The notes: a model not told the origin generated them from the letters alone. DNA of 32,000 nucleotides from Aciduliprofundum boonei T469 (GCF_000025665.1 NC_013926.1:1350001-1382000), one strand, 5' to 3'; positions 1,310-5,656 are shown, counted from the first letter of the stretch. Numbers and translations: made by a program.

Positions 1310-3034
1310 TTAATCTCCATTAAATTTTCTCTTGAATGCGAGTATTGCTAAGAGAAGTATAATAAATAGAAAATATGGGATGTCAAATTCTGGTACATAA
1401 TTTGCATAGTTTCCCGCAATCCAAGCACTTTTGTTTTCCCAGTATATCTCGTACCAGGTGATGTCCTCATCGCTGTTATATTTCTGTCCCTTCTTGGCAA
1501 AGAGCATTCCATCATAAACTGAGCCAAGTATGGTGTTAGATGTTCCAGCCCCAGAGCGAACATGCAGGGAGGAGGAGACATTTACTACAAATATATCAGA
1601 ATATGCCATTTCAGTGTACCATGCAGCACACCAACCCACCCTGTCATCGTAGAAGAACTGCCACCATTTGCGCCCTGATGAATCAATGCTATAATTGTAT
1701 GCAACGAACTCTTGATTCTCTGGCACAGTTCCTATTATGCCATAACTCGTGCTTGGACCTGTTCGAATATTGAGAGCAGTGGCAGTAACTCGAAATACCT
1801 GCATAAATTTCTTGGTTCCATTCGGTATATGGTAAAAATTTACAAGGTCATACTTAGATGGGAAAAACGAGGATATGGATACATTCCATTCATCGGGAGA
1901 ATGAGTGGCTATGTAAAGATTGTCTTCATTCCTATATGTTACTATACCTGCATATATGTAATGCTCACCATTTGAGTCTCCAAATATGACCACATCCCCT
2001 TTTTCTATCCATTCAGGAACTGTAAAATTTGAAGCAAGATAGTACGAAAATTTTGCATTCTGATACTCTCTGAGATTCTCATTCAGATACTTTGGATTTA
2101 TCATTGAGCCATTGTAATTTAAAGCCCCATCGCCTTTACCATCATATCCTCTCCAGAGAGATATTCCTCCTGCTATCAATACCTGAGAAACGAAATTTGT
2201 GCTCTCCTCGCTGGAGTTTGAAAATTTCTGGTAATGGGAATTGTCGGAAGAGTACCACTTATAAGCATAACCTAAAGCACCCGCTCTATCATAATAGGGG
2301 AGAGTACACGAGCCACCTATAACAAAATTATCTATGAGGGATTTTAAATTTCCATTGTAATAATCCATATCCACATTGCCACTCACCCCCGATACATTTC
2401 CCTCGTCTGTGTACTGCCAGAATGCCCAGGAGTCCCAAATTCCCGTGGAAGGGGACGAAACTCTATAATTGGCTATCCAGAGATTCCATTGAGATACGGA
2501 GGAATCAAGGTAGTTTTCAGCATAATTTGGATTCGTGTAAATTATTGGCTTTATACCCGTTAAATTGAATACTTCAATCATAAATTCATTTACCCAACTT
2601 GATAAGCTCTCTTTTCCTAAGGATGATCCTTCTTCTAAATCCAAAACGGGTCTCAAATATCCACTCTTCAGATATGTTTTTATGGTATCTACAAAATGCT
2701 CTGCGGCCTCTTTTGCATTATAATTTTCAGGTTCTGCAAAGTGATAGGCACCAACATACAATCCTGATGCGTGTGCCTTCTCCATATTTTCTTCAAAATC
2801 CGGGTCCACATAAGATGTCCCCTCTGTGGCCTTTACAAATGCAAAGATTATCCCGGAATTTTTAACTTTAGTCCAGTTCACATTTCCCTGCCAGTGGGAA
2901 ACATCTATACCCTTAATGCTGGAGGATGTTTTGAAATATAAACTCTCTTTTTGATTGCTACCATAACCTATGGCAAAAAATATAGCATTAAGAATCAGTA
3001 TGAATACCACAAACCAAACTATTGGCCTTTTCAT
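1310..3034 (-). CDS. secreted, membrane-anchored GH25 muramidase (Chalaropsis-type lysozyme) with an amidase-like middle domain and two SH3b domains
   Basis: 574 aa. N-terminal hydrophobic signal or anchor (residues 5-24). GH25 motifs GIDVSHWQG, FAFVKATEG, GAYHFA, catalytic LDLEEG (D-x-E), FWQYT and GVSGNVDMDYYNG. Middle domain resembles the putative amidase family (..STNFVSQVLIAGG.., ..ATHSPDEW). Two SH3b-like repeats (ALNIRTGPSTSYGIIGTV.., SLHVRSGAGTSNTILGSV..). C-terminal PEF + TM helix + KRK. Confidence 0.9.
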   Translation of the reverse strand: MKRPIVWFVVFILILNAIFFAIGYGSNQKESLYFKTSSSIKGIDVSHWQGNVNWTKVKNSGIIFAFVKATEGTSYVDPDFEENMEKAHASGLYVGAYHFAEPENYNAKEAAEHFVDTIKTYLKSGYLRPVLDLEEGSSLGKESLSSWVNEFMIEVFNLTGIKPIIYTNPNYAENYLDSSVSQWNLWIANYRVSSPSTGIWDSWAFWQYTDEGNVSGVSGNVDMDYYNGNLKSLIDNFVIGGSCTLPYYDRAGALGYAYKWYSSDNSHYQKFSNSSEESTNFVSQVLIAGGISLWRGYDGKGDGALNYNGSMINPKYLNENLREYQNAKFSYYLASNFTVPEWIEKGDVVIFGDSNGEHYIYAGIVTYRNEDNLYIATHSPDEWNVSISSFFPSKYDLVNFYHIPNGTKKFMQVFRVTATALNIRTGPSTSYGIIGTVPENQEFVAYNYSIDSSGRKWWQFFYDDRVGWCAAWYTEMAYSDIFVVNVSSSLHVRSGAGTSNTILGSVYDGMLFAKKGQKYNSDEDITWYEIYWENKSAWIAGNYANYVPEFDIPYFLFIILLLAILAFKRKFNGD

Positions 3035-3058
3035 TTAAAGGTAGTATAAGCTCCAGCG

Positions 3059-3072
3059 ATAAAAATTTTATG
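3059..3072 (-). promoter_or_regulatory. TATA-like element for the lysozyme gene (near-leaderless transcript predicted)
   Basis: On the minus strand, ATAAAATTTTTATC lies about 25-30 nt upstream of the ATG at 3034. Assignment is by position only. Confidence 0.3.
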
Positions 3073-3085
3073 TCATTGCAAAGAA

Positions 3086-3095
3086 TTAAATATTT
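3086..3095 (+). promoter_or_regulatory. TATA-box-like element driving the C/D sRNA and probably the downstream gene
   Basis: TTAAATATTT lies about 20-25 nt upstream of the sRNA 5' terminal stem (3110) and C box (3114). This is the expected TATA-to-TSS distance in archaea. Confidence 0.35.
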
Positions 3096-3109
3096 TCAAA
3101 GAATTCCTA

Positions 3110-3166
3110 ATCTGTGATGAAAAGAGGGTCAGCTGATAAGATGATGAGCCCTATGAGTGCTGAGGT
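3110..3166 (+). ncRNA. box C/D sRNA (2'-O-methylation guide RNA)
   Basis: C box GTGATGA at 3114-3120, 12-nt spacer, D' box CTGA at 3133-3136, TAAG linker, C' box ATGATGA at 3141-3147, 12-nt spacer, D box CTGA at 3160-3163. Flanking AUC (3110-3112) and GGU (3164-3166) can form a terminal stem that leaves a 3-nt kink-turn bulge. Confidence 0.75.
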
Positions 3167-3173
3167 GATTTAA

Positions 3174-3758
3174 ATGAAAAGTATTGAAGAGCTTGTTAAA
3201 AGAGCGAGAGAGCTGAAGGAGAAGGGTCTGGATACAAAGGAGATAGCAACAGAGTTGCATTTATCCACGAATACCGTGGAATGGTTACTCACAAAGGGGA
3301 TTGGAGGAGAGGCACCCAAGGATGTGAAAATAGGGTGGAGAAGCATAGGGATATATCCCTACAGAATATCTAAAATTGCAGAAATAATGAGTGATATAAT
3401 CCTTGAAGAGATGGAGAAGAGACAATTTGATGTTGATTCTATTGTTGGAATTCTAATAAATGGTATTCCATTTGCAACTTTCATCGCGGAGGAATTGAAT
3501 GTTGAATTGATAATATACAGGCCGCATCCCAAGATGGAAGAGGGAGCATTCTCGAGTAATTATGCCCATATAGAAGGAAAGAAAGTAGTAATTGTAGATG
3601 ATGTCATGAGCACCGGTGAAACTTTGAGAAAGGCGATAGATGATATAAAAAATGCAGGTGGTGAGCCAGTGCTTAGTGTTGTGCTCGTGAACAAAACTCC
3701 CTGGGATGAGGTAAACGGAGTACCATTAAGGGCTCTAATTCGTGCAAGAACTTTATGA
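3174..3758 (+). CDS. HTH + phosphoribosyltransferase-domain protein (orotate PRTase-like; GfcR/PyrE2-type transcriptional regulator)
   Basis: 194 aa. N-terminal HTH-like segment (GLDTKEIATELHLSTNTVEWLL) followed by a type I PRTase domain with the PRPP loop VVIVDDVMSTGETL. SD GGTGAT at 3164-3169. Confidence 0.75.
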   Translation: MKSIEELVKRARELKEKGLDTKEIATELHLSTNTVEWLLTKGIGGEAPKDVKIGWRSIGIYPYRISKIAEIMSDIILEEMEKRQFDVDSIVGILINGIPFATFIAEELNVELIIYRPHPKMEEGAFSSNYAHIEGKKVVIVDDVMSTGETLRKAIDDIKNAGGEPVLSVVLVNKTPWDEVNGVPLRALIRARTL

Positions 3759-3965
3759 TCTCTTTCTTTTTTTGGCAGTCCATATCTCCCTGTAGAACTC
3801 TTCCTCTTTCTTCCTCTCCTCTTCGCTTTTCTCTTTTGGTTCCTCTTTCATCCTGGATTTCTTAGGCAATCCTAATCTATTAAAATATGGATTTAGCAAA
3901 TATTCTACAATTATTGTCCCCAATATTATTACGATTGCCCATATTATTGCAGTTCCTGTGTCCAT
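3753..3965 (-). CDS. small single-pass membrane protein with a K/E-rich tail (hypothetical)
   Basis: 70 aa. One hydrophobic helix (AIIWAIVIILGTIIVEYLL) followed by a charged tail. The ATG immediately follows the MBF1 stop (TAAATG). No homology recognised. Confidence 0.45.
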   Translation of the reverse strand: MDTGTAIIWAIVIILGTIIVEYLLNPYFNRLGLPKKSRMKEEPKEKSEEERKKEEEFYREIWTAKKRKRS

Positions 3966-4502
3966 TTACAACGCATCCTTAATTAAATCTCCCAATGTTA
4001 ATCCACCACTCTTCTTTGTATCCTTGCGATAAACGGTGGATACTTTTTCTTTAAGCTTGATATCCAACGCCTTTTCTAATTTCTTTATTAGCTTTTCATC
4101 AGGGTGCATTTCTCCCCTTTCAATCTTTGAGATAACCGTTTTCTTTTCAAGTATTTTTTTGGCAAGTTGCTCTTGAGTTAGCCCCATCTTCTCCCTCGCT
4201 TTCCTTATAACTTCTGGGTAATCTTCAATTAGTACTTCCTCCTCATCCAGATAATCCTTTCTTCTTCTCCTCTGCTTCCTCTCCAACCTCTCCCTTACAA
4301 CTTCAGGGGGCAGATATTTCACATCCTTTGGTATTTCATTTCCTTTAATCTCTTTGCCGAATTTGGCGCAATCATCACAAACATTCATAATCACGCCTTC
4401 TATCACAACTTTATGTAATCGTGGTACATTTTTGCCACATAATTCACAAATCATAATCTCACCAAATCTCCCATGCCTTTCCGATATATATTTTTGTTCC
4501 AT
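3966..4502 (-). CDS. mbf1: archaeal multiprotein-bridging factor 1 (aMBF1): zinc ribbon + HTH (XRE-type)
   Basis: 178 aa. N-terminal CxxC..CxxC (CELCGK...CDDCAKFG), basic linker, and a C-terminal cro/C1-type HTH (LTQEQLAKKILEKKTVISKIERGEMHPD). Confidence 0.85.
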   Translation of the reverse strand: MEQKYISERHGRFGEIMICELCGKNVPRLHKVVIEGVIMNVCDDCAKFGKEIKGNEIPKDVKYLPPEVVRERLERKQRRRRKDYLDEEEVLIEDYPEVIRKAREKMGLTQEQLAKKILEKKTVISKIERGEMHPDEKLIKKLEKALDIKLKEKVSTVYRKDTKKSGGLTLGDLIKDAL

Positions 4503-4573: not shown

Positions 4574-5656
4574 ATGATTGAAAATACTCCTAAGTTGTTC
4601 ATACCGGGACCGACTGAAGTGGATGATAGGGTACGCATAGCGATGGCACAAAGAGTTATAGGACATCGTACAAAGGAGATGACTGAGCTTTATGGTGGAA
4701 TTGTGGAGAAGATGCAGAAACTCTTCAATACTGATCACTATGTGTTTGTTTTCACATCCAGCGGCTCTGCCGTTATGGAAGGTACCATAAGAAATCTAGC
4801 AGAGAAGGATGTTTTACACGGTGCTTGTGGTGCTTTCAGCAAGCGCTGGTATGAGATGAGCTTGGCGAATGAAAAAAATGCTGATTTGGTCTGGGCAGAT
4901 TGGGGCAAGGCAGTAAAACCAGAGATGATAGCAGATGCTATGGAGAAGAAAAAATACGAGCTTCTGGCACAAATACACAATGAGACAAGCACAGGTGTTA
5001 AAAATCCCACAGATGAGATTGCAAAAATTGCACATGAGAATGATACTTTAATAGCCATTGATACCGTTTCTTCCCTTGGTGGAGATATGATTGATGTGAA
5101 TAAGTATGATGTGGTTATCGCCTCCTCGCAGAAAGCTTTGGCCCTTCCTCCAGGTCTTGCCGTGGCTATTGTGAGCGAAGAGGCCATGGAGAAGAGTAAA
5201 AAAACAAGGAATAAGGGCTATTATTTTGATTTTGTTCGCATGCTCAAAAGATTTGAAAAGAGTCAGCAGCACCCAACCACCCCATCTGTGCCGCTCTTAT
5301 ACGCCATGGATGTGCAGCTTGATATTATGCTTGAAGAGGGTATGCAGGCAAGATATGAAAGGCATCTAAAAATGCGTGAGATAGTTCATAACTGGGTTAA
5401 AAAGAGAGGATTTGAACTATTCGCAGAGAAGGGATATGAAAGTGTGACCGTAACTACGATAACCAACACCTATGGCATATCCATAAAAGAGCTTAATGAG
5501 GAGCTAGTGAGAAGGGGATTGCGCATATCAAATGGCTATGGCGAATTGAAAGAGAAAACATTCAGAATAGCACACATGGGTCAATTAACCCCCACCGATA
5601 TAATGGGCCTCTTAGATACCATCGACGAGATTCTAGAGGCAAAGGGGGTGTACTGA
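4574..5656 (+). CDS. class V PLP aminotransferase (serine-pyruvate / archaeal-type phosphoserine aminotransferase)
   Basis: 360 aa. Class V fold pattern (IPGPT...V..AM, HNETSTGV, DTVSSLGG, SSQKALALPPGLA with the PLP lysine). SD GGTGAT at 4564-4569. The stop abuts the serA start. Confidence 0.8.
   Translation: MIENTPKLFIPGPTEVDDRVRIAMAQRVIGHRTKEMTELYGGIVEKMQKLFNTDHYVFVFTSSGSAVMEGTIRNLAEKDVLHGACGAFSKRWYEMSLANEKNADLVWADWGKAVKPEMIADAMEKKKYELLAQIHNETSTGVKNPTDEIAKIAHENDTLIAIDTVSSLGGDMIDVNKYDVVIASSQKALALPPGLAVAIVSEEAMEKSKKTRNKGYYFDFVRMLKRFEKSQQHPTTPSVPLLYAMDVQLDIMLEEGMQARYERHLKMREIVHNWVKKRGFELFAEKGYESVTVTTITNTYGISIKELNEELVRRGLRISNGYGELKEKTFRIAHMGQLTPTDIMGLLDTIDEILEAKGVY

What the first reader, a model, noticed from the sequence alone, without database searches (positions are those of the whole stretch)
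3086..3176. Unannotated canonical box C/D sRNA in the 5' leader of the HTH-PRTase regulator gene, overlapping its Shine-Dalgarno site
Seen directly: GUGAUGA (3114-3120), 12 nt, CUGA (3133-3136), UAAG, AUGAUGA (3141-3147), 12 nt, CUGA (3160-3163). Flanking AUC and GGU can close a terminal stem with a 3-nt bulge, as in a kink-turn. This is the exact C/D'/C'/D layout and 12-nt guide spacing of archaeal methylation guides, and I found no other site in the window that meets these constraints. The guides are AAAGAGGGUCAG (D') and GCCCUAUGAGUG (D). The predicted targets are 5'-CUGACCCUCUUU-3' and 5'-CACUCAUAGGGC-3', with the fifth nucleotide (C in both) methylated. The unusual part is the position. 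The D box ends 10 nt before the ATG at 3174, and the 3' stem shares its GG with the SD GGUGAU (3164-3169). The only TATA-like box (3086-3095) lies about 20-25 nt upstream of the sRNA. The sRNA and the regulator mRNA therefore probably start as one transcript. Either the sRNA is excised from the 5' UTR, or L7Ae/Nop5/fibrillarin assembly on the leader masks the RBS and acts as a cis-regulatory kink-turn. L7Ae binding to 5'-UTR K-turns has been reported to regulate translation in Sulfolobus.
Basis: partly seen in the sequence, partly recalled or inferred. Interest (0 to 1): 0.65.

Follow-up and report, generated by a model that had tools for sequence, protein, structure and literature searches.

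The report
Dual-guide box C/D methylation guide RNA
This is a real but ordinary archaeal box C/D guide RNA: one guide matches the wobble base of elongator methionine tRNA and the other matches helix 69 of 23S rRNA, and it sits in front of a regulator gene, which is a common arrangement in archaea.

Summary
It is a box C/D sRNA of Aciduliprofundum, conserved in seven lineages.

- D guide: pairs over 11 contiguous bp with the exon 1/intron junction of the organism's own elongator pre-tRNA-Met. C34 lies opposite the fifth guide nucleotide, as for Haloferax sR-tMet. The guide sequence matches Rfam sR41 and sR-tMet.
- D' guide: pairs over 10 contiguous bp with the archaeal 23S helix 69 sequence UGACCCUCUU, selecting C1920 (E. 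coli numbering). C/D-guided methylation of this site is documented in Nanoarchaeum. I checked this on Haloarcula 23S and the Rfam archaeal consensus, not on this organism's own 23S.
- Promoter: a conserved BRE/TATA lies 20-21 nt upstream of box C, and only 10-18 nt separate box D from the ATG. The sRNA is therefore almost certainly the 5' part of the regulator mRNA. This arrangement is already described for archaeal C/D sRNAs.
- Position: the leader location is derived. In two outgroup lineages the same sRNA lies 3' of a POR gene. The D-box/SD overlap occurs in only two of four leader lineages.

RBS masking by the sRNP remains an untested add-on. Verdict: new member of a known kind.

The parts
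3080..3093 (+). BRE/TATA-like promoter element (AAAGAA TTAAATAT)
   Evidence: TTAAATAT is conserved with a 20-21 nt gap to box C in window/L002, L006, L007 and L177. It is the only promoter candidate in the 139-nt divergent intergenic region. TSS not mapped.
3110..3166 (+). box C/D sRNA (approximate mature extent, about 52-57 nt)
   Evidence: Rfam sub-threshold hits span 3110-3166. Conserved in 7 lineages. The true ends are not mapped.
3114..3120 (+). box C (GUGAUGA; AUGAUGA in strain T469)
   Evidence: The only strain variation is at the degenerate R position. UGAUGA is invariant in all 8 aligned copies.
3121..3132 (+). D' guide AAAGAGGGUCAG; predicted target 23S rRNA H69 UGACCCUCUU, Cm1920 (E. 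coli numbering)
   Evidence: 10 contiguous WC bp with H. marismortui 23S and with the Rfam archaeal LSU consensus. Shuffled-guide control 334/200000. 11-12 of 12 nt conserved in L006, L007, L010 and L178; degenerate in L177.
3133..3136 (+). box D' (CUGA)
   Evidence: invariant.
3137..3140 (+). D'-C' linker (UAAG), K-loop
   Evidence: Variable in sequence and length between lineages (UAAG, UAGG, UGGG, UUG, 7-12 nt in outgroups) while the boxes and guides stay fixed.
3141..3147 (+). box C' (AUGAUGA)
   Evidence: UGAUGA invariant.
3148..3159 (+). D guide GCCCUAUGAGUG; target C34 of elongator pre-tRNA-Met across the exon 1/intron junction
   Evidence: 11 contiguous bp (10 WC + 1 GU), -19.2 kcal/mol, with the A. 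boonei pre-tRNA-Met. Only 7 contiguous bp with the spliced tRNA, and no match to the initiator tRNA. CCCUAUGAGU is invariant in all copies. Matches the sR41 and sR-tMet guides.
3160..3163 (+). box D (CUGA)
   Evidence: invariant.
3162..3169 (+). Shine-Dalgarno GAGGUGAU of the downstream gene, sharing GA with box D
   Evidence: Complementary to the 16S 3' end GGAUCACCUCCU of a family member. An SD is present in all four leader lineages, overlapping box D in two of them.
3174..3758 (+). OPRT-like / GfcR-family HTH-PRTase gene whose 5' leader contains the sRNA
   Evidence: Pfam Pribosyltran. NCBIfam NF002620 224 bits, above the 115 cutoff. GfcR_Halo 141.6, below the 300 cutoff.

Best explanation
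A box C/D sRNA of about 55 nt assembles with L7Ae, Nop5 and fibrillarin and guides two 2'-O-methylations.

- The D guide pairs with the intron-containing precursor of elongator tRNA-Met across the exon 1/intron junction and places the wobble C34 at the fifth position from box D. Methylation must therefore precede splicing.
- The D' guide pairs with the 3' side of helix 69 of 23S rRNA and selects C1920 (E. coli numbering).
- The gene is transcribed from a conserved BRE/TATA about 20 nt upstream of box C. Because only 10 nt separate box D from the ATG, the same transcript continues into the OPRT-like/GfcR-family regulator gene. The sRNA is then preserved by sRNP assembly while the flanks are trimmed.

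Shown here: the motif, its conservation, the tRNA target in the same genome, and the rRNA target on proxy sequences. Inferred: expression, sRNP assembly, actual methylation, the shared transcript and processing.
For: Motif and chance:
- Exact motif, far beyond chance.
- It is the only C/D-like site in the window.
- Sub-threshold but highly significant Rfam hits, with the D guide matching sR41 and sR-tMet.

Conservation:
- Within A. boonei strains the only substitutions are at the R of box C and in the linker.
- Across 7 lineages the boxes and guide cores are invariant while linker and flanks diverge.

D guide target:
- The elongator pre-tRNA-Met of A. boonei T469 and of the assembly 100% identical to the window reads GACUCAUA|GGGU. 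That gives 11 contiguous bp with C34 at N+5, -19.2 kcal/mol.
- The spliced tRNA and the initiator tRNA do not match.
- 118 of 120 metagenomic hits are intron-bearing elongator tRNA-Met genes whose intron begins GGG.
- Guide nucleotide 2 co-varies with tRNA position 31: U with A31 here, C with G31 in the sR41 type.

D' guide target:
- 10 contiguous WC bp with the archaeal 23S H69 consensus and with H. marismortui 23S. Shuffled-guide control 0.0017.
- C/D-guided Cm1920 is confirmed in N. equitans (PMC5389701).

Promoter:
- Spacing is conserved.
Against: - No expression, sRNP-binding or methylation data exist for this organism.
- Rfam scores are below the gathering thresholds (44.3 vs 54 for sR41; 22.8 vs 50 for sR-tMet).
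- The D' target was not checked on A. boonei's own 23S rRNA, which I could not obtain.
- In lineage L177 the D' guide has decayed, so that function is dispensable in at least one lineage.
- The guide nucleotide next to box D is mismatched with G30.
- The predicted TSS may fall at or inside the first bases of box C, which would leave no 5' strand for a terminal stem.
Confidence: 0.82

Rival explanations
1. Besides acting as a guide, the C/D K-turn in the leader is a cis-regulatory element. L7Ae/Nop5/fibrillarin assembly next to or over the SD blocks ribosome binding, or commits the transcript to sRNA processing. Expression of the regulator is then inversely coupled to sRNP assembly.
For: - Box D shares GA with the SD GAGGUGAU, 10 nt before the ATG, in the window and in L177.
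- L7Ae binding to a K-turn adjacent to an SD represses translation in Sulfolobus and other archaea (PMC5539422).
- The gene needs a leadered, SD-dependent mRNA, and the leader is the sRNA.
Against: - The overlap is not conserved: L007 and L006 have 4 and 7 nt between box D and the SD.
- In outgroups L010 and L178 the sRNA lies 3' of a POR gene, and the regulator ortholog has an sRNA-free upstream region. The coupling is therefore recent and not required by either partner.
- Promoter sharing without regulation is the commonly described situation.
- There are no functional data.
Confidence: 0.15
2. The sRNA is an independent gene. Transcription ends after box D, and the regulator gene is transcribed separately.
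For: About 20% of archaeal C/D sRNAs have their own TATA promoter. This one has a well-placed TATA.
Against: - Only 10-18 nt lie between box D and the ATG.
- There is no T-run terminator and no second TATA-like element in that interval or inside the sRNA.
- The upstream gene is divergent, so no other promoter can serve the ORF.
Confidence: 0.08
3. Chance motif, or a short upstream ORF. ATGATGAGCCCTATGAGTGCTGAGGTGATTTAA encodes a 10-codon peptide that ends at the start codon, with no guide-RNA function.
For: Box C' supplies ATG codons, and the reading frame ends in TAA directly before the ATG at 3174.
Against: - Expected 2e-7 per window by chance.
- The guide is invariant at every codon position across lineages.
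- It is kept in outgroups where no ORF follows.
- Both guides have specific targets at known modification sites.
Confidence: 0.01

Closest known systems
Haloferax volcanii sR-tMet (Rfam RF02163; Joardar et al. 2011, cited in PMC4033218 and PMC6601510)
   Same: Same D guide sequence (GAGCCCUAUGAGUGC aligned). Same target nucleotide, C34 of elongator tRNA-Met. Same dependence on the intron-containing precursor, as that paper's title states and as shown here by 11 bp with the precursor against 7 bp with the spliced tRNA.
   Different: Scores 22.8 bits against a gathering score of 50. The Rfam model is 72 nt, against about 55 nt here. This RNA has a conserved second guide for rRNA. From memory, sR-tMet is about 75 nt and has only one antisense element. 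Different phylum-level lineage (Thermoplasmatota).
Pyrococcus sR41 (Rfam RF01126) and the Pyrococcus elongator tRNA-Met wobble guide reported by Clouet-d'Orval et al. 2001 (via PMC7994747)
   Same: Best Rfam hit (44.3 bits, E 3e-9). The D guide is identical except at nucleotide 2 from box D (C instead of U), which matches the G31 type of tRNA-Met. Same size class and box layout.
   Different: Below the gathering score of 54. The D' guide is unrelated: the sR41 consensus there is variable and shorter.
Nanoarchaeum equitans sR20 (Cm1920 guide; PMC5389701) and Pyrococcus sR20 (Rfam RF01140)
   Same: Neq sR20 guides Cm1920 in 23S helix 69, the site predicted for the D' guide here. The Rfam sR20 D' guide consensus aaagagGaUcGg matches AAAGAGGGUCAG at 10 of 12 positions.
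   Different: The other guide of Neq sR20 targets 16S Gm1530, not a tRNA. The Rfam sR20 score is 32.3 against a gathering score of 44. I did not verify what Pyrococcus sR20 targets.
L7Ae-binding K-turns in archaeal mRNA leaders (Daume et al. 2017, PMC5539422)
   Same: A K-turn-forming element directly next to an SD in a 5' leader.
   Different: There the K-turn is a dedicated operator in the l7ae/nop5 mRNAs. Here it is the terminal C/D motif of a functional guide RNA, and adjacency to the SD is not conserved. No binding or reporter data.

Membership tests
Archaeal box C/D sRNA (2'-O-methylation guide) | Terminal box C (RUGAUGA) and box D (CUGA) | tested here: met
   3114-3120 and 3160-3163; invariant in 8 aligned copies.
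Archaeal box C/D sRNA (2'-O-methylation guide) | Internal D' and C' boxes separated by a short linker (K-loop) | tested here: met
   CUGA 3133-3136, UAAG, AUGAUGA 3141-3147. The linker varies while the boxes are fixed.
Archaeal box C/D sRNA (2'-O-methylation guide) | About 12-nt guide spacers between the boxes | tested here: met
   12 nt and 12 nt; kept in all lineages except the decayed 10-nt D' guide of L177.
Archaeal box C/D sRNA (2'-O-methylation guide) | Guide complementarity of at least 9-10 bp to a stable RNA of the same organism, with the fifth nucleotide from box D/D' on a plausible site | tested here: met
   D guide: 11 bp with A. boonei pre-tRNA-Met, C34 at N+5. D' guide: 10 bp with 23S H69, C1920 at N+5, shown only on H. 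marismortui 23S and the Rfam archaeal consensus.
Archaeal box C/D sRNA (2'-O-methylation guide) | Purifying selection on boxes and guides in related genomes | tested here: met
Archaeal box C/D sRNA (2'-O-methylation guide) | Expressed as a discrete small RNA bound by L7Ae/Nop5/fibrillarin, with the target actually methylated | not testable with these tools
   Needs RNA-seq or Northern blot, RIP, and RiboMeth-seq or MS.
Rfam RF01126 sR41 | Bit score at or above the gathering threshold (54) | tested here: not met
   44.3 bits, E 3e-9 locally and 3.2e-7 window-wide. Only the D half aligns well.
Rfam RF02163 sR-tMet | Bit score at or above the gathering threshold (50) | tested here: not met
   22.8 bits.
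Rfam RF02163 sR-tMet | Guide pairs with the exon/intron junction of elongator pre-tRNA-Met and selects C34 | tested here: met
Cm1920 (23S H69) guide, as N. equitans sR20 | Guide complementary to H69 with N+5 on C1920 in the organism's own 23S rRNA | tested here: inconclusive
   Met on the Rfam archaeal LSU consensus and on H. marismortui 23S. The 23S rRNA of A. boonei could not be fetched. The 16S of a family member has no such site.
L7Ae-responsive leader K-turn (translational operator) | K-turn adjacent to or overlapping the SD, conserved among orthologous leaders | tested here: inconclusive
   Overlap in the window and L177; 4 and 7 nt apart in L007 and L006; absent from the leader in L010 and L178.
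L7Ae-responsive leader K-turn (translational operator) | L7Ae-dependent repression of the downstream ORF | not testable with these tools
   Needs EMSA and reporter assays.

The most novel reading that the evidence does not exclude
In the Aciduliprofundum lineage, a housekeeping guide RNA moved into the leader of a GfcR-family metabolic regulator. Every transcript must then choose between becoming an sRNP and being translated. Assembly of L7Ae/Nop5/fibrillarin at the C/D K-turn, which shares two bases with the SD, would gate synthesis of the regulator. That would link a sugar or nucleotide metabolism regulator to the cell's capacity for tRNA and rRNA modification.
Probability: 0.12. Interest if true: 0.55.

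Novelty: new member of a known kind. Interest (0 to 1): 0.3.

Why it matters
- It adds an sRNA gene to Aciduliprofundum that Rfam gathering thresholds miss and for which I found no report.
- It assigns likely guides for two modifications, tRNA-Met Cm34 and 23S Cm1920, in a thermoacidophilic Thermoplasmatota lineage.
- It extends intron-dependent, guide-directed wobble methylation of elongator tRNA-Met beyond haloarchaea and Thermococcales. It also shows that the intron begins GGG, the bases this guide pairs with, in more than 100 archaeal tRNA-Met genes.
- It is a clean example of one sRNA serving both a tRNA and an rRNA, and of a C/D sRNA gene relocating between host transcription units.
- None of these points changes current understanding.

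Tried and rejected
- Genome-contig scan with the exact 12-mer target plus T-loop: only 10 chance bacterial hits.
- Viral-contig scans for the tRNA junction, the sRNA and the 23S site: nothing relevant.
- ARAGORN does not detect intron-bearing tRNAs here. The tRNA-Met it found in L002 is the initiator (AGCGGGG..., GGGCUCAUAACCC), which pairs with the guide over only 6 nt. Rejected as a target.
- D' target searched in the window, in pre-tRNA-Met, in the 16S rRNA of a family member and in 1.26 Mb of held loci: only coding-sequence chance hits.
- Joardar 2011 and Clouet-d'Orval 2001 could not be read. I cite them only through papers that cite them.
- MFE folding of the leader is not better than shuffles (z = -1.08). 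This is uninformative for a protein-dependent K-turn RNA.
- Terminal-stem covariation: the flanks pair in the window (AUC/GGU or AAUC/GAUU) and in L007 (CUAAA/UUUAG), but only weakly in L006 and L177. I do not claim it as evidence.
- Literature search for C/D sRNAs in Aciduliprofundum: no paper.

Full report
**Observation.** The sequence is exactly as described: GTGATGA (3114-3120), 12 nt, CTGA (3133-3136), TAAG, ATGATGA (3141-3147), 12 nt, CTGA (3160-3163), then GGTGAT and the ATG at 3174. The strict pattern occurs once in the window. Its analytic expectation is 1.9e-7 per window, and neither the strict nor a relaxed pattern appeared in 200 Markov-1 simulated windows. Rfam at gathering thresholds reports only a tRNA-Val in the window. 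A permissive scan gives significant sub-threshold C/D hits only at 3110-3166: sR41 44.3 bits, sR3 39.4, sR20 32.3, snoPyro_CD 30.6, sR-tMet 22.8. A pipeline that relies on Rfam gathering thresholds would therefore miss the element. I could not inspect the deposited annotation.

**Source.** The window is 100% identical over 13.8 kb to GCA_013329755.1 and 97.8% identical to Aciduliprofundum boonei T469 scaffold DS990516.1. The downstream ORF (3174-3758) is an 'orotate phosphoribosyltransferase-like protein' (NCBIfam NF002620, above cutoff). It is related to the haloarchaeal regulator GfcR but scores below that equivalog's cutoff.

**Conservation.** Among A. boonei strains, the only substitutions inside the element are G/A at the degenerate first base of box C and A/G in the D'-C' linker. 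The element also lies upstream of the orthologous gene in three further lineages, whose proteins are 90%, 84% and 79% identical (L007-9, L006, L177). In two more distant Thermoplasmata lineages (about 70% identical; L010/L011, L178) the same sRNA lies elsewhere in the neighbourhood, about 20 nt 3' of a POR gene on the other strand. In the alignment of all copies, UGAUGA, CUGA, UGAUGA, CCCUAUGAGU and CUGA are invariant. The linker (3-12 nt) and the flanks diverge freely. The D' guide is 11-12 of 12 identical in five lineages and has decayed to a 10-nt AACAAGGGCG in L177.

**D guide target.** The D guide matches the guides of Rfam sR41 and sR-tMet. sR-tMet guides Cm34 of elongator tRNA-Met in haloarchaea (PMC4033218; PMC6601510).

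- A first collection scan with the exact 12-mer failed.
Of these, 118 are archaeal elongator tRNA-Met genes with an intron directly after A37 that begins GGG.
- One such contig placed the tRNA just 3' of the eS1 gene. Through eS1 homologs and cluster membership I fetched the eS1 locus of A. boonei T469 and of GCA_013329755.1.
- Both encode GCCGGGGUGGCUCAGCCUGGUGGAGCGUCGGACUCAUA|GGGUAUAUUAAUCUCCACCUCCAAGCCUGAGA|AAUCCGAAGGUCCCGGGUUCAAACCCCGGCCCCGGCA.
- The exons are identical in eight family lineages, including strain MAR08-339.
- The guide 3'-GUGAGUAUCCCG-5' pairs with G30-A31-C32-U33-C34-A35-U36-A37-G-G-G-U as one mismatch at G30, then ten Watson-Crick pairs and one G.U. C34 lies opposite the fifth guide nucleotide, and the duplex energy is -19.2 kcal/mol.
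- The spliced tRNA keeps only 7 contiguous pairs, and the initiator tRNA-Met (L002) does not match.
- The second guide nucleotide is U here and in sR-tMet (A31 tRNAs). It is C in the sR41 consensus, matching the G31 tRNA type seen in other loci.
- The target is therefore the precursor, and methylation must precede splicing.

**D' guide target.** No target was found in the window, in pre-tRNA-Met, in the 16S rRNA of a family member (L175 6976-8451) or in 1.26 Mb of held sequence.

- From memory I recognised the conserved target core UGACCCUCUU as part of archaeal 23S helix 69. A recalled 183-nt Haloarcula marismortui fragment matched NZ_CP039136.1 at 100%.
- The fetched locus is a complete LSU rRNA by Rfam.
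- The Rfam archaeal LSU consensus there reads GgGGGU-AACUaUG-ACCCuC-uUAAgGUAGC.
- The D' guides of A. boonei, L007 and L010 pair with AUGACCCUCUUA over ten contiguous Watson-Crick pairs (guide nucleotides 2-11). The fifth position falls on the equivalent of E. coli C1920. Nothing comparable exists in 16S or 5S, and 334 of 200,000 shuffled guides do as well.
- The decayed L177 guide has lost the match.
- C/D-guided Cm1920 in helix 69 is experimentally confirmed in Nanoarchaeum equitans (PMC5389701). Helices 68-71 are a known archaeal methylation hotspot (PMC4644070; PMC7994747).
- Limitation: I could not obtain the 23S rRNA of Aciduliprofundum itself.

**Context and expression (inferred).**

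- The intergenic region is bounded by a divergent gene.
- AAAGnn-TTAAATAT is conserved, with 20-21 nt between the TATA and box C, in all four leader lineages.
- Only 10-18 nt separate box D from the ATG, and that stretch has no T-run and no second TATA.
- The SD GAGGUGAU is complementary to the 16S 3' end GGAUCACCUCCU.
- The ORF therefore almost certainly shares its promoter and transcript with the sRNA.
- The predicted TSS lies within a few nucleotides of box C, so the 5' strand of the proposed terminal stem may not be transcribed.
- The D-box/SD overlap exists in the window and in L177. L007 and L006 have 4 and 7 nt between them.
- MFE folding is uninformative.

**Comparison with what is known.** Reviews and primary work state that most archaeal C/D sRNA genes overlap or abut neighbouring ORFs. 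They are matured from longer transcripts whose promoters they 'hijack', and their positions relative to ORFs are dynamic (PMC7994747; PMC6009581; PMC5539422). The leader position is therefore not unusual. Its absence in the outgroups shows that it is derived.

L7Ae repression through a K-turn next to an SD is real in other archaea. tRNA-targeting sRNAs are reported to be mostly single guides. A conserved tRNA-plus-rRNA dual guide is thus mildly noteworthy.

**Verdict.** This is a genuine dual-guide box C/D sRNA and a new member of a known kind. Confidence is about 0.8 for the guide function. It is higher for the tRNA target, which was verified in the same genome, than for the rRNA target, which rests on proxy sequences. 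I put cis-regulation of the downstream regulator at about 0.12-0.15. Interest is modest.

Noticed in passing
window 1310-3034 (-): GH25 muramidase + amidase + SH3 gene, a bacterial-type lysozyme in an archaeon. It is the known horizontally acquired A. boonei lysozyme (PMC4241558). It is absent from the same site in the T469 draft scaffold: L002 has a deletion corresponding to window 1334-3062, ending about 20 nt before the BRE/TATA. It is also absent in the L007 lineage, and L006 has an fn3 gene there instead.
   Followed up: partly
L041-L160 (metagenome loci); L171 3235-3341: In 118 archaeal elongator tRNA-Met genes from many lineages the intron starts GGG directly after A37. These are the bases paired by the Cm34 guide, which suggests the guide constrains the intron's 5' end. 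Within the Aciduliprofundum family the 3' two-thirds of the intron (UCUCCACCUCCAAGCCUGAGA) is also invariant, while nucleotides 4-11 vary.
   Followed up: partly
L010 about 5440-5498 (-); L178 about 4365-4415 (-): In the outgroup lineages the sRNA lies about 20 nt after the stop codon of a POR gene. It is antisense to, or abuts, the 3' end of a convergent AAA ATPase gene, and the linker of L010 forms a small hairpin (GCCCUUUGGGC). The sRNA gene has moved between two host transcription units within the same neighbourhood.
   Followed up: partly
window 3141-3173 (+): Box C' supplies ATG codons that open a 10-codon reading frame (MMSPMSAEVI). It ends in TAA immediately before the main ATG (TAAATG). 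This is probably incidental.
   Followed up: partly
window 3094-3109 (+): The stretch between the TATA and box C (TTTCAAAGAATTCC, containing the small inverted repeat TTCAAAGAA) is conserved in A. boonei and L007 and partly in L006. It could be an operator, for example for autoregulation by the HTH-PRTase protein.
   Followed up: no
L002 2887-2962 (-); L001 1160-1431; L003 568-1500: An initiator tRNA-Met gene sits next to tRNA-Phe in the T469 draft scaffold. ARAGORN finds none at the corresponding place in L001. L003 has a phage-type integrase there instead. This is a variable, possibly integration-prone spot about 7 kb upstream of the sRNA.
   Followed up: no
window 3966-4502 (-) and 3753-3965 (-): aMBF1 (multiprotein bridging factor, TIGR00270) and a conserved 66-70-aa ORF without family hits lie convergent to the PRTase-like gene. 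The PRTase/aMBF1 pairing is kept in all lineages examined.
   Followed up: no
L175 6976-8451 (-): In an Aciduliprofundum-family contig the 16S rRNA gene stands alone, with no 23S within 10 kb, as in Thermoplasma. It lies about 1.5 kb upstream of the eS1 / tRNA-Met(e) pair.
   Followed up: no
tool behaviour: ARAGORN as configured misses intron-containing tRNAs, whereas the Rfam tRNA model found the intron-bearing tRNA-Met at gathering score (L175 10680-10787). ARAGORN's tRNA counts for archaeal windows are therefore lower bounds.
   Followed up: yes
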